Virus record (IMG/VR): IMGVR_UViG_3300043567_000723
DNA: 64,000 nt
Strand: one strand, 5' to 3'
Source: a virus
Lineage: Duplodnaviria > Caudoviricetes
The notes below the pieces were generated by a model. That model was not told where the DNA came from. It saw nothing but the letters and a program-made list of their open reading frames with translations, and did not search any database. Both the position numbers and the translations under genes were made by a program. Shown in pieces: positions 57,264-62,727 of the stretch. The stretch's first letter is position 1, and each line of letters starts with the position of its first letter.

Positions 57264-57337
57264 TGGTGGAGGTTGGATTCGAACCAACGTCCTCTAGCTT
57301 ATGAGGCTAGCGAGCTACCGGGCTGCTCCACTCCACG
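57264..57337 (-). tRNA. trnM: tRNA-Met(CAT), initiator-like body
   Basis: Minus strand: CGTGGAG TG GAGC-AGCCCGGTA-GCTC G CTAGC-CTCATAA-GCTAG AGGAC GTTGG-TTCGAAT-CCAAC CTCCACC A. Has a C1:C72 mismatch and an A11:U24 pair. Confidence 0.9.
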
Positions 57338-61521: not shown

Positions 61522-61986
61522 ATGCAAACTTTTCTACCGCTGCCCAGCTTTCGGGCTTCGGCGGCTTGCTTGGACAATAAACGACTTGGAAAACAACGGG
61601 TCGAGTGCAAACAAATTCTTTTGTGTCTGGGCGTTCCAATTGGTGAACACACGCCCGGTAAATCCAGCTGGAGAAATCATCCGGCTGTGCGCATGTGGGC
61701 TGGATCTGAAATAGCCCTGATCGCATACAGCGCCGTAATTTGCAGAGAATGGCGCCGCCGCGGGTTTCGCGATACACTGCACGCGCAGTTCATGGAAGCA
61801 TATGATCGCGAACGGGGCGGACTAATAGTTCCGTATCCGCGATGGTTTCGGAGTCGGCGCTTTCATTCCAGTCACCGTAGTAATTTGCTGCGCAAAGACT
61901 ATAATCACTACTCGCGTTTCGGTTGGATGGAGTCAATTGACTTGCCATACTATTGGCCCGTTAGTGACGTAGCAGTTAATGTTTAA
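61522..61986 (+). CDS. Pyrimidine dimer DNA glycosylase / MSMEG_6728-like protein
   Basis: MQTFLP...LDNKRLGKQRVECKQIL...WRNHPAVRMW...HSSHRSNLLRKD family signature. Confidence 0.8.
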   Translation: MQTFLPLPSFRASAACLDNKRLGKQRVECKQILLCLGVPIGEHTPGKSSWRNHPAVRMWAGSEIALIAYSAVICREWRRRGFRDTLHAQFMEAYDRERGGLIVPYPRWFRSRRFHSSHRSNLLRKDYNHYSRFGWMESIDLPYYWPVSDVAVNV

Positions 61987-61991
61987 TATAT

Positions 61992-62064
61992 GCCGGTGTA
62001 GCTCAGTTGGTAGAGCCACTGATTTGTAATCAGTAGGTCGTCGGTTCGAGTCCGACCGCCGGCT
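61992..62064 (+). tRNA. trnT: tRNA-Thr(TGT)
   Basis: GCCGGTG acceptor, GCTC D-arm, ACTGA-TTTGTAA-TCAGT anticodon arm, GTCGG-TTCGAGT-CCGAC T-arm; CCA not encoded. Confidence 0.95.
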
Positions 62065-62066
62065 TT

Positions 62067-62257
62067 ATGGCAGATACGCGGGGCGCGCGTTTAACGCTTG
62101 AAGTGATAAACGTATCGGGCTGATCCCCTGAGCGGACGAAGCTTGCGGACGGGGAAGAAATGCAGAGTTGATCGCTGCTGTTGTGTACCCGTATTAAATC
62201 CTGAAATGACAGGAAAACAAAAATTTATCACAGCCGGTTCGACTCCGGCCTGCCATT
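62067..62257 (+). ncRNA. tRNA-like structured RNA with ~130-nt internal domain
   Basis: ATGGCAG/CTGCCAT 7-bp acceptor-like stem, GCCGG-TTCGACT-CCGGC T-arm, ACGCG/CGCGT D-like hairpin, GTGATAAA/TTTATCAC closing stem. No canonical anticodon arm. Confidence 0.65.
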
Positions 62258-62263
62258 ATTAAT

Positions 62264-62294
62264 TGGTATAATCCATAGTTAGTCACGGAGGACT
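62264..62294 (+). promoter_or_regulatory. Extended -10 promoter (TG-G-TATAAT) and CsrA-type SD hairpin AGTC-ACGGAG-GACT
   Basis: TATAAT at 62267-62272 preceded by TG-N; 4-bp hairpin at 62281-62294 with ANGGAN loop. Confidence 0.6.
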
Positions 62295-62298
62295 TGCT

Positions 62299-62727
62299 AT
62301 GGATTTTCATATCAGCCTTAAAGATATCAATACATTAGCGCCAACTGAGATTGACGAGATATACAACCGGTTGTCTGTGCCGGGTCGCAATATGCGCGAC
62401 GAAATCTCTAAGCGTTATATCGAACGCTGGCCGGGTGAGCACGAAGCCATGACGATGGCGCTAATCCACCAAAACGGTTTATTTGTTGCGTGGGTTGGTT
62501 CTCGACCTTTTAAAGAAAAATTCAAAGGCAAGATGCTCGACGTTCAAACAGTCGAGTGTTTTACAGACCCAGAACTACGGCGCCGCGGTATTGCGCAGCT
62601 TGGTTTACAAGCGCTTATAAGTGCCGGCGTAATTAATAGAGACAAACCCGTGTCTGTGTACGAAAAATCTGTAGTTAAAATGGCGGAGCGCTGCGGATGC
62701 AAGTTCGTGGTGTTGTGTATTTCATGA
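62299..62727 (+). CDS. GNAT-family acetyltransferase
   Basis: Motif A: VECFTDPELRRRGIAQLGLQAL. Confidence 0.7.
   Translation: MDFHISLKDINTLAPTEIDEIYNRLSVPGRNMRDEISKRYIERWPGEHEAMTMALIHQNGLFVAWVGSRPFKEKFKGKMLDVQTVECFTDPELRRRGIAQLGLQALISAGVINRDKPVSVYEKSVVKMAERCGCKFVVLCIS

What the first reader, a model, noticed from the sequence alone, without database searches (positions are those of the whole stretch)
62067..62257. tRNA-mimic RNA: canonical acceptor stem and T-arm enclosing a large multi-stem domain
Seen: it starts 2 nt after tRNA-Thr. It has a 7-bp acceptor-like stem plus a 5-bp T-arm with TTCGACT, a D-like hairpin, then an 8-bp stem (62103-62110 with 62224-62231) joined to the T-arm by 1 nt. 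That stem encloses CCCC/GGGG, TCCTG/CAGGA and ATCGGG/CCCGTAT pairings, a GCGGACG direct repeat and four GGA triplets. A short frame GCA...TAA (AELIAAVVYPY*) lies inside. Established: tmRNA has this topology but is ~350 nt with a G3-U70 pair, which is absent here; it is too short for a group I intron. Inference: a mini-tmRNA-like RNA, a tRNA decoy against anticodon nucleases or uncharged-tRNA sensors, or a CsrA sponge matured by RNase P.
Basis: partly seen in the sequence, partly recalled or inferred. Interest (0 to 1): 0.72.

Follow-up and report, generated by a model that had tools for sequence, protein, structure and literature searches.

The report
Phage tRNA-shaped RNA with folded cargo
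Right behind a phage threonine-tRNA gene lies a gene for a 190-base RNA that keeps the top half of a tRNA but carries a conserved folded insert where the anticodon arm should be; it is a real, rare RNA gene of the same kind as phage T4's unexplained "species 1" RNA, and it is not a small tmRNA.

Summary
Window 62067-62256 (discriminator 62257, + strand) folds into a 7-bp acceptor stem, a GC-rich D-like hairpin, a canonical T arm and an 8-bp stem (P2) that closes a 113-nt inner domain.

I found homologues in three uncultured phage contigs of about 120-200 kb (two distinct sequences) and a decayed remnant in a fourth. Across the four copies all 28 scaffold pairs stay paired. Eleven pairs change on both sides and none breaks. 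Slid controls pair at 25-46%.

Rfam has no match, and ARAGORN at default settings calls neither a tRNA nor a tmRNA. In about 30 related contigs the tRNA-Thr runs straight into the next gene's promoter, so the element is an accessory insertion.

It is not a tmRNA:
- There is no G3-U70 pair, and the acceptor sequence varies between copies.
- The candidate tag frame is not conserved and has no stop in two copies.
- A sister phage that carries the element also has a full tmRNA elsewhere.

Best reading: a tRNA-scaffolded stable RNA. Host tRNA enzymes would process it, and its cargo would act on an unknown partner. The cargo has a 32-33-nt near-invariant core, an anticodon-arm-like hairpin and two loops that can pair through GAUC.

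The closest known analogue is T4 rnaC. This scan has reported the same kind of RNA on other phage DNA, but not this family. Function is unknown.

The parts
61992..62064 (+). tRNA-Thr(UGU). It is the upstream neighbour, 2 nt from the element, and no CCA is encoded.
   Evidence: ARAGORN; Rfam tRNA 72.4 bits.
62067..62073 (+). Acceptor-like stem, 5' strand (ATGGCAG).
   Evidence: Pairs with 62250-62256. Four of the 7 pairs change on both sides among homologues and none breaks.
62076..62090 (+). D-like hairpin: a 5-bp G+C stem with a G-rich loop (GGGCG).
   Evidence: The closing pair covaries A-U to G-C. The loop GG could play the part of G18/G19 (inference).
62091..62102 (+). Conserved 12-nt single-stranded joiner (TTAACGCTTGAA) between the D hairpin and P2.
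   Evidence: Nearly invariant in alignment A2. Its GCUU could pair with AAGC of the core, but both are invariant, so this cannot be tested.
62103..62110 (+). P2 stem, 5' strand (GTGATAAA). It closes the inner domain.
   Evidence: Pairs with 62224-62231. Four of the 8 pairs change on both sides and none breaks.
62111..62142 (+). Near-invariant core of the cargo: 32 nt here, 33 nt in the relatives. It ends in CGGACGAAGC, which contains a GNCGAAG word.
   Evidence: It is the most conserved block of A2, although the copies are only 69-78% identical overall. The GNCGAAN0-1G motif is described for YrlA in PMC4201824.
62115..62131 (+). H1: an anticodon-arm-like hairpin with a 4-5 bp stem and the 7-nt loop CUGATCC.
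   Evidence: Read from the sequences. C-G becomes U-G in the relatives. A 20-nt look-alike forms a 5-6 bp hairpin with a 7-nt loop in a 101-nt tRNA-like RNA of sister phages (p = 0.001 for L040, 0.19 for the window copy).
62143..62193 (+). Variable arm H2. Its apical hairpin is at 62162-62178 (GCAG..CTGC) and its loop contains TTGATC.
   Evidence: A hairpin sits at this place in every copy, with a different sequence and length in each. The loop carries GATC, or GATT in L040.
62194..62197 (+). Invariant TTAA between H2 and H3.
   Evidence: Alignment A2. The TAA is in frame with the core in only 2 of the 4 copies.
62199..62214 (+). H3 hairpin (TCCTG-AAATGA-CAGGA).
   Evidence: One pair changes on both sides (U-A to C-G) and the loop is conserved.
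62224..62231 (+). P2 stem, 3' strand (TTTATCAC). One nt (A62232) separates it from the T stem.
62233..62249 (+). T arm: a 5-bp stem with the canonical loop TTCGACT.
   Evidence: One pair changes on both sides. The Rfam tmRNA and YrlA models align only to this arm in the relatives.
62250..62257 (+). Acceptor-like stem, 3' strand (CTGCCAT), plus the discriminator T. No CCA is encoded.
   Evidence: The discriminator is T, T, G, G in the four copies.
62264..62272 (+). Extended -10 box TGGTATAAT of the downstream GNAT operon. It marks the 3' boundary of the insertion and is not part of the RNA.
   Evidence: In relatives without the element the same box follows tRNA-Thr directly. There are only 2 matches to the pattern in the window.

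Best explanation
The element is a gene for a stable RNA of about 190 nt built on a tRNA scaffold.

It is read through from the denV-tRNA-Thr transcript, and I found no promoter of its own (inferred). The acceptor stem stacked on the T arm, together with the D-like hairpin, forms a tRNA-like top half. Host RNase P would cut at A62067, which also frees the 3' end of tRNA-Thr. Host 3' trimming and CCA addition would finish the molecule. These steps are inferred from the anatomy and from how T4 tRNA-cluster transcripts are processed.

In place of an anticodon arm, an 8-bp stem carries a cargo domain:
- a near-invariant core of 32-33 nt with an anticodon-arm-like hairpin (H1);
- a variable hairpin (H2) and a small conserved hairpin (H3);
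- H1 and H2 loops that both carry YUGAUC and can pair with each other over about 5 bp, which would lock the cargo into a compact fold (inferred).

The scaffold supplies processing and stability. The cargo is the working part and most likely binds a host or phage protein. The RNA neither decodes codons nor tags proteins. It is an accessory gene, present in a minority of related phages and decaying in one.
For: - Structure under selection: 28 scaffold pairs are 100% paired in 4 copies, with 11 compensatory pairs and 0 broken, against 25-46% paired in slid controls. Overall identity is only 69-78%, like the flanking denV DNA at 68-72%.
- tRNA-likeness: the covariance model built from the element picks up ordinary tRNAs at 15-27 bits through its acceptor, D and T parts. 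The T loop is canonical.
- No anticodon arm: Rfam tRNA does not match. ARAGORN finds only a forced 'tRNA-Ser plus 103-nt intron' at an 80% threshold, with two mismatches in a 5-bp anticodon stem.
- Same organisation as T4: rnaD and rnaC lie 1-6 nt behind tRNA-Arg. rnaC has an acceptor-like stem that covaries (A-U to G-C), a canonical T arm and no anticodon arm. Its role is still unknown (PMC3014915).
- Cargo: the core is near-invariant. Every copy has YUGAUC/U in both the H1 and H2 loops. In T4 rnaC the two hairpin loops carry the complementary words UUGACG and CGUCAA.
- Accessory status: in about 30 related loci tRNA-Thr is followed directly by the promoter of the GNAT gene, and L013 keeps a remnant with the centre deleted and a broken T loop.
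Against: - There is no expression data.
- Only three distinct sequences exist, so the fold of the inner domain is not settled. RNAalifold prefers a different pairing for the core, and single-sequence folds disagree with each other.
- The GAUC-GAUC loop pairing cannot show covariation, because the word is palindromic.
- No partner is known.
- The family is very rare: three contigs in IMG/VR and JGI metagenomes, and none among representative prokaryote genomes. Weak or local selection cannot be excluded.
Confidence: 0.5

Rival explanations
1. It is a decoy of a tRNA anticodon arm. H1 has a 7-nt loop, YUGAUCM, with a U33-like U and a GAU 'anticodon'. Displayed on a tRNA body, it would soak up a host anticodon nuclease or another tRNA-targeting defence or modification enzyme and so protect the real tRNA-Ile(GAU).
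For: - The H1 hairpin is conserved inside the near-invariant core.
- A 20-nt look-alike, GGAUACAGG-CUGAUUA-CCUG, forms a 5-6 bp hairpin with a 7-nt loop in the long variable region of a 101-nt tRNA-Ile(UAU)-like RNA of sister phages (p = 0.001 for L040, 0.014 for L010).
- The element is an accessory gene, as counter-defence genes often are.
Against: - The H1 stem is weak in L040 and L010: two G-C pairs plus two wobble pairs.
- Position 37 is C rather than a purine.
- The similarity to the sister-phage hairpin is not significant for the window copy (p = 0.19).
- RNAalifold prefers another pairing for this stretch.
- No nuclease that targets tRNA-Ile is known to me (own knowledge).
Confidence: 0.15
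2. It is a circularly permuted Y RNA (YrlA-like). The tRNA-like module plus the GNCGAAG word of the core would bind the host Ro60/Rsr protein and redirect or block Rsr-PNPase RNA decay.
For: - The invariant CGGACGAAGC contains GACGAAG, which fits the GNCGAAN0-1G motif proposed for Rsr recognition in YrlA RNAs.
- YrlA also has T, D and acceptor-like parts.
- M. smegmatis YrlA is cut by RNase P and receives CCA.
- YrlA occurs in phages (all four points: PMC4201824).
Against: - No TROVE/Ro60 gene was found in five related phage genomes, including a 98%-complete one that carries the element, or among ten of the large ORFs of the window.
- The Rfam YrlA model aligns only to the T arm or to flanking DNA, at 11.8-13.4 bits against a 69-bit cut-off.
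- The motif specifies only 6 positions. About 0.09 matches are expected by chance in 190 nt (my own arithmetic).
- The topology differs from YrlA.
Confidence: 0.1
3. It is a miniature tmRNA. It would be charged, enter stalled ribosomes and add a short tag read from the frame that opens after the UGA of the core (ADEA...).
For: - It has tmRNA topology: acceptor stem, T arm and a P2 stem that encloses the body.
- In the window and in L040 a frame opens at the same place, right after UGA. It begins A/T-D-E-A and ends at the conserved UAA after 21 and 19 codons.
Against: - There is no G3-U70 pair. Positions 1:72, 2:71, 3:70 and 5:68 and the discriminator all vary.
- In L009 and L010 the UAA is out of frame, and the ADEA frame runs through the T arm without a stop.
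- The tag ends (YPY, VAS) are unlike degradation tags and unlike each other.
- The core is conserved at every codon position, which is the pattern of an RNA, not of a coding sequence.
- ARAGORN does not call it a tmRNA even at a relaxed threshold, and Rfam gives nothing.
- The L010 phage has a full tmRNA elsewhere (149.5 bits), and ARAGORN calls full tmRNAs in three related phages.
Confidence: 0.05
4. It is a broken or intron-bearing tRNA gene: either a dead duplicate of a tRNA with junk inserted, or a tRNA whose insert is spliced out.
For: - ARAGORN at 80% stringency draws a tRNA-Ser(UGA) with a 103-nt intron.
- The element is dispensable and decays in L013.
Against: - Eleven compensatory pairs and no broken pair argue against a pseudogene.
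- The insert holds the most conserved block of the molecule.
- No excision leaves a proper anticodon arm. D and P2 are 12 nt apart, and P2 and the T stem 1 nt apart.
- The Rfam group I intron model gives no match at E up to 10, and 113 nt is far below the smallest known self-splicing group I introns, about 200 nt (own knowledge).
Confidence: 0.05
5. It is a CsrA sponge that displays GGA motifs.
Against: - Only the GGA inside CGGACGAAG is in every copy. The other three of the window copy are not conserved, and L040, L009 and L010 carry a different second one, in ACGGAUAUG.
- None sits in a hairpin loop in the ANGGA form that CsrA prefers (own knowledge).
Confidence: 0.02

Closest known systems
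Phage T4 species 1 RNA (rnaC, 139 nt, NC_000866 70908-71046) and its neighbour rnaD
   Same: - It is encoded a few bases behind a tRNA gene in a phage.
- It has a terminal acceptor-like stem that covaries, a canonical T arm and no anticodon arm, with a body of hairpins whose loops are complementary.
- No CCA is encoded.
- Its function is unknown (PMC3014915).
   Different: - There is no convincing sequence homology. The model built on the element scores rnaC at 13.9 bits through the T arm and a stem only, and local alignment gives p = 0.014-0.8.
- The element is longer, at 190 nt.
- Its acceptor stem is perfect, whereas T4's has two U-U mismatches.
- It has a real D-like hairpin, and its cargo hangs from a dedicated 8-bp stem.
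tmRNA (Rfam RF00023 and ARAGORN model)
   Same: - The acceptor stem and T arm are formed by the two ends.
- A P2-like stem encloses a large body.
- It sits in a phage that also carries tRNA genes.
   Different: - It is half the size.
- It lacks G3-U70.
- It has a D stem, which tmRNA lacks.
- It has no conserved tag frame.
- No tmRNA model detects it.
- It coexists with a true tmRNA in a sister phage.
Bacterial and phage Y RNA YrlA (Rfam RF02553)
   Same: - It has a tRNA-like D arm, T arm and acceptor.
- It carries a GNCGAAG word in a conserved block.
- One YrlA is cut by RNase P and receives CCA (PMC4201824).
   Different: - The order of the parts is permuted.
- No Ro60 gene is nearby or in related genomes.
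- The YrlA model does not match.
'tRNA-chassis' RNAs of phages reported earlier in this scan (e1-5410580, e1-3507089, e1-3269810, e1-4035489)
   Same: They follow the same design principle: the tRNA top half is kept and the anticodon part is replaced by a folded insert. They also sit in phage tRNA regions.
   Different: - Those notes describe a constant tRNA-Leu-like frame.
- Here the acceptor sequence varies, and by my recollection of tRNA-Leu the D hairpin is not Leu-like (not tested).
- The sequence look-up found no look-alike outside this genome. I could not compare sequences directly.

Membership tests
tmRNA | G3-U70 wobble pair in the acceptor stem (alanine identity) | tested here: not met
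   Pair 3:70 is G-C, A-U, G-C, G-C in the four copies.
tmRNA | Conserved tag reading frame with a resume codon and an in-frame stop | tested here: not met
   The frame from the core to the conserved UAA is kept in the window and L040 only. L009 and L010 have no stop in that frame, and the peptides are unrelated after the first 4 residues.
tmRNA | Recognised by the tmRNA models (Rfam tmRNA families, ARAGORN -m) | tested here: not met
   No tmRNA match at E up to 10. ARAGORN -m finds nothing even at -ps80. RF00023 aligns to the T arm only, at 16.6 bits.
tmRNA | SmpB binding and alanylation | not testable with these tools
   This needs biochemistry. No SmpB gene was found in five related phage genomes.
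Canonical or intron-bearing tRNA | Anticodon arm (5-bp stem, 7-nt loop) between the D arm and the variable region, directly or after removal of an intron | tested here: not met
   Rfam tRNA gives no match. ARAGORN, only at 80% stringency, gives an anticodon stem with 2 mismatches in 5 pairs. There are 12 nt between the D hairpin and P2, and 1 nt between P2 and the T stem.
Canonical or intron-bearing tRNA | 7-bp acceptor stem, T arm with UUCRANU loop, D arm with GG | tested here: met
   Model R1 cross-hits true tRNAs at 15-27 bits.
T4 rnaC-type phage stable RNA | Lies within a few nt of a tRNA gene on the same strand, with an acceptor-like stem and T arm but no anticodon arm | tested here: met
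   The element is 2-3 nt behind tRNA-Thr in the window, L009 and L010, and 245 nt behind it in L040. T4 layout.
T4 rnaC-type phage stable RNA | Sequence homology to rnaC | tested here: not met
   R1 against rnaC scores 13.9 bits through the T arm and a stem only. Shuffle tests give p = 0.014-0.8. blastn of the region against 50,697 phage records matched only the tRNA-Thr part of the query.
T4 rnaC-type phage stable RNA | Accumulates as a discrete stable RNA in infection | not testable with these tools
YrlA / bacterial Y RNA | GNCGAAN0-1G motif | tested here: met
   GACGAAG lies inside the invariant CGGACGAAGC. The motif is defined in PMC4201824. It is short, so a chance match is possible.
YrlA / bacterial Y RNA | Encoded next to (within about 4 kb of) a Ro60/TROVE gene on the same strand | tested here: not met
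   PF05731 is absent from five related phage records. The flanking genes are denV and a GNAT. Ten of the large ORFs of the window have no TROVE domain.
YrlA / bacterial Y RNA | Match to Rfam RF02553 | tested here: not met
   The best overlap with the element scores 11.8-13.4 bits against a 69-bit cut-off and covers the T arm or the flank only. There was no hit.
Group I intron in a tRNA | P3-P8 catalytic core; about 200 nt or longer | tested here: not met
   The insert is 113 nt, and the Rfam Intron_gpI model gives no match at E up to 10.
CsrA sponge RNA | Several conserved GGA motifs in hairpin loops | tested here: not met
   Only the GGA of CGGACGAAG is shared by all copies, and it is not in a predicted loop.

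The most novel reading that the evidence does not exclude
These phages graft one small cargo module, an anticodon-arm look-alike (GGAUAYRGG-YUGAUYM-CCUG), onto at least two different tRNA bodies: this 190-nt RNA and a 101-nt tRNA-Ile(UAU)-like RNA in sister phages. The module would act as a nuclease-proof bait for a host enzyme that attacks or modifies tRNA-Ile(GAU). If so, tRNA-shaped phage RNAs of the T4 rnaC kind would be a modular counter-defence platform.
Probability: 0.1. Interest if true: 0.78.

Novelty: new variant of a known kind. Interest (0 to 1): 0.5.

Why it matters
T4's tRNA-shaped "species 1" RNA has had no known function for about 50 years. This element is an independent example of the same design, and some of its features are easier to test:
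- The scaffold is clean: a perfect acceptor stem, a D hairpin and a T arm.
- A single 8-bp stem separates scaffold from cargo.
- The cargo has a short near-invariant core and two loops that can pair.
- Nature has already done the deletion experiment, since about 30 related loci lack the element.

It also shows that a tmRNA-like outline is not enough to call a tmRNA. For annotation, it marks an RNA gene that every standard tool misses.

Tried and rejected
- Rfam: the gathering-threshold search of the whole window and the E up to 10 search of 61900-62400 matched nothing on the element.
- ARAGORN: with introns and tmRNA at default settings, nothing. At -ps80 there is a poor tRNA-Ser+intron model on the + strand and a worse tRNA-His model on the - strand.
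- blastn against 50,697 phage records matched only the tRNA-Thr part of the query.
- Pattern scans for more homologues all returned only the same three contigs plus chance hits:
  - core motif in IMG/VR;
  - core motif in JGI metagenomes, 35 hits;
  - core plus T loop in IMG/VR, 46 hits, all the others ordinary tRNAs;
  - 5' block in IMG/VR;
  - core motif in 185,579 prokaryote genomes, 26 hits, motif only.
- The covariance model run over five complete sister genomes found no second copy, only tRNAs and the tmRNA.
- Similarity to the phages' own tmRNA is limited to the T arm.
- Similarity to T4 rnaC: a shared CGGAUAUGG word lies in different structural contexts and is not robust.
- GATC as a DNA signal: GATC is not depleted or enriched in the window, 265 observed against 247 expected.
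- Own promoter or terminator: none was found around the element.
- Phage-encoded helpers: no CCA-adding enzyme, SmpB or Ro60 in five related genomes.
- A resemblance of the core to the 3' end of 16S rRNA (GAUCACCU) and to the 11-nt tetraloop receptor (UAUGG..CCUGAG) were both judged chance or incomplete, by eye and from memory.
- No whole genome is held for the window.

Full report
**What is there**

tRNA-Thr(UGU) lies at 61992-62064 (ARAGORN; Rfam 72.4 bits). Two bases later a 190-nt stretch begins (62067-62256, discriminator T at 62257). Its ends pair over 7 bp (ATGGCAG with CTGCCAT). Directly inside the 3' strand lies a textbook T arm, GCCGG-TTCGACT-CCGGC. After the 5' strand and two bases comes a G+C-rich hairpin with a G-rich loop in the place of a D arm. 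Twelve bases further on, an 8-bp stem (62103-62110 with 62224-62231, here called P2) closes a 113-nt inner domain. P2 is joined to the T stem by a single base.

**Is it more than chance?**

Folding energy alone says little (z = -1.8). The upstream gene is a DenV-type pyrimidine-dimer glycosylase (Pfam PF03013), and I used it to fetch 80 related loci from IMG/VR. These come from uncultured phages of about 200 kb with no close cultured relative.

- blastn and a covariance model found the element in three of these loci: L040, L010 and L009. L009 and L010 are nearly identical, so there are three distinct sequences in all. They are 69-78% identical to one another, no more conserved than the flanking denV DNA at 68-72%.
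- On their alignment (A2) the 28 pairs of acceptor stem, D hairpin, P2, T stem and the small hairpin H3 are paired in every copy.
- Eleven pairs have changed on both sides and none is broken. When the 3' partners are slid by 1-3 columns, only 25-46% pair and 0-1 pairs change on both sides (RNAalifold agrees).
- This is the signature of an RNA whose fold is under selection. It also fixes the strand: the T loop and the G-U pairs of H1 make sense only on the + strand.

**What it is not**

- Rfam 15 has no match, either at gathering thresholds or at E up to 10 on the 500-nt surroundings.
- ARAGORN at default settings calls nothing here. Only at 80% stringency does it force a 'tRNA-Ser(UGA) with a 103-nt intron', whose anticodon stem has two mismatches in five pairs.
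- No excision leaves a proper anticodon arm. An insert of 113 nt is too small for a group I intron, and that Rfam model is silent.

It is not a tmRNA either:
- Pair 3:70 is G-C or A-U, never G-U. Positions 1:72, 2:71, 3:70 and 5:68 and the discriminator all vary, so no acceptor identity is kept.
- A frame opens right after a conserved UGA and begins A/T-D-E-A. In the window and L040 it reaches the conserved UAA after 21 and 19 codons. In L009 and L010 the UAA is out of frame and the frame runs on through the T arm.
- The core is conserved at all three codon positions, and the peptide ends are unrelated.
- The sister phage that carries the L010 copy also has a full-size tmRNA elsewhere (RF00023, 149.5 bits). 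ARAGORN finds full tmRNAs in three other relatives.
- The element shares only a generic T arm with those tmRNAs.

**Genomic setting**

In about 30 of the related loci tRNA-Thr is followed directly by a conserved extended -10 box (TGTATAAT or TGTATACT) and the GNAT gene. In the window, L009 and L010 the element sits exactly between the tRNA and that box (window box at 62264-62272).

In L040 it lies 245 nt behind tRNA-Thr, after a small ORF, and in front of a different gene. L013 keeps a remnant in which everything between the two TTAA words has been deleted and the T loop is spoiled.

So the element is an accessory gene in a variable spot, and it is gained or lost as a unit. I found no promoter or terminator of its own, so read-through from denV and tRNA-Thr is the simplest assumption. 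Exact-pattern scans of IMG/VR, JGI metagenomes and 185,579 prokaryote genomes recover only the same three contigs. The family is rare.

**The cargo**

Inside P2 the first 32-33 nt form a near-invariant core that ends in CGGACGAAGC.

- H1. Part of the core can form a hairpin with a 4-5 bp stem and a 7-nt loop, YUGAUCM. It looks like an anticodon arm with GAU in the anticodon position but a pyrimidine at position 37. A 20-nt look-alike forms a 5-6 bp hairpin with a 7-nt loop inside the long variable region of a 101-nt tRNA-Ile(UAU)-like RNA of sister phages. The shuffle p is 0.001 for L040, 0.014 for L010 and 0.19 for the window.
- H2. A hairpin arm that differs in length and sequence in every copy.
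- An invariant UUAA.
- H3. A small conserved hairpin with one compensatory pair.
- An A-rich run that leads back to P2.

In every copy the apical loop of H2 again carries YUGAUC (GAUU in L040). The H1 and H2 loops could therefore pair over about 5 bp. This is an inference that covariation cannot test, because GAUC is its own complement. Single-sequence folds and RNAalifold disagree on the rest of the inner domain. Three sequences are too few to settle it.

**Closest known**

Phage T4 encodes two stable RNAs, rnaD and rnaC, 1-6 nt behind tRNA-Arg.

- rnaC (species 1 RNA) has a terminal acceptor-like stem, which I found to covary between T4 and two distant T-even relatives (A-U to G-C). It also has a canonical T arm, no anticodon arm and two hairpins whose loops carry the complementary words UUGACG and CGUCAA.
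- Its role is still unknown (PMC3014915).
- The design is the same as here, but I could not show sequence homology.

Bacterial Y RNAs of the YrlA type are a second comparison.

- They too mimic tRNA, one of them is cut by RNase P and receives CCA, and they carry a GNCGAAN0-1G word thought to contact Ro60 (PMC4201824).
- The invariant core here contains GACGAAG.
- Against this reading: no Ro60/TROVE gene is present in five related phage genomes or in ten large ORFs of the window. The YrlA model aligns only to the T arm. The order of the parts is permuted, and the motif is short.

Earlier reports of this scan describe many phage 'tRNA-chassis' RNAs with swapped inner parts. This element fits that kind. 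It has no look-alike among them by the sequence look-up, and it lacks their constant Leu-type frame.

**How it most likely works**

Shown:
- a conserved tRNA-like top half;
- a conserved stem that holds a cargo with a near-invariant core;
- accessory distribution among related phages.

Inferred:
- The RNA is cut out of the denV-tRNA-Thr transcript by host RNase P at 62067, trimmed, and given CCA by host enzymes. The related phages encode no CCA-adding enzyme.
- The tRNA shape gives it stability.
- The cargo, folded by the loop-loop contact, binds a protein. The partner is unknown. A tRNA-targeting enzyme (through H1) and Ro60 (through GACGAAG) are the two specific candidates.

I put about 0.9 on 'real structured tRNA-like RNA gene' and about 0.5 on the scaffold-plus-cargo mechanism with a partner other than those two. 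For the rest I put 0.15 on the anticodon-arm decoy, 0.1 on a Y-RNA-like role, 0.05 on a tmRNA-like role, 0.05 on a dead or spliced tRNA and 0.02 on a CsrA sponge.

**Limits**

- There is no expression evidence.
- No whole genome is held for the window.
- Only three distinct sequences exist.
- The searches for relatives used exact patterns, so divergent members may have been missed.

Noticed in passing
L122 2454-2554 (- strand), identical copy in L207 (G004:115458-115558): A 101-nt tRNA-like RNA in sister phages that ARAGORN does not call. It has good acceptor, D and T arms and an anticodon arm with UAU (Ile, AUA) and U37. A 33-nt variable region holds two extra hairpins, one of them a second anticodon-arm look-alike (ACAGG-CUGAUUA-CCUGU, GAU).
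   Followed up: partly
L173 1501-1857 (-); L122 1044-1388 (-); L123 and L126 1501-1845 (-): Full-size tmRNA genes in these uncultured phages of about 200 kb, next to tRNA-Leu(UAG) and tRNA-Glu. RF00023 scores 149.5 bits. ARAGORN reads different tags from near-identical genes (GAYAPALAA in one, a 25-residue tag in the others), so the tag call needs checking. No SmpB gene was found in the five phage genomes searched.
   Followed up: partly
G007:181969-182082 (-), inside L173: The Rfam YrlA model gives a full-length match below cut-off (27.7 bits, E 6e-5). It overlaps the 3' part of tRNA-Leu(UAG) and the roughly 60 nt behind it.
   Followed up: no
window 62258-62300 and the same place in about 30 related loci: A conserved extended -10 box (TGGTATAAT, TGTATAAT or TGTATACT) is followed by a hairpin whose 3' half contains the Shine-Dalgarno GGAGG of the GNAT gene. 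The hairpin arms covary between relatives by eye (for example CCATAG..CTATGG against CATGGTT..ACCATGG).
   Followed up: no
L086 2909-3047 (-), T4 rnaC, with L178 and L179: In T4 rnaC the two hairpin loops carry the complementary words UUGACG and CGUCAA, kept in two distant T-even phages. The terminal stem covaries (A4-U135 to G-C).
   Followed up: partly
L040 3545-3790: In this relative a 66-codon ORF (MDKPEKF...) and a G+C hairpin followed by CUUUU lie between tRNA-Thr and the element, so here the element may need its own transcription start.
   Followed up: no
window 57264-57337 (-): A second tRNA gene in the window, tRNA-Met(CAU) at 63 bits, lies on the opposite strand next to a 394-aa ORF with a weak DUF6582 match.
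   Followed up: no
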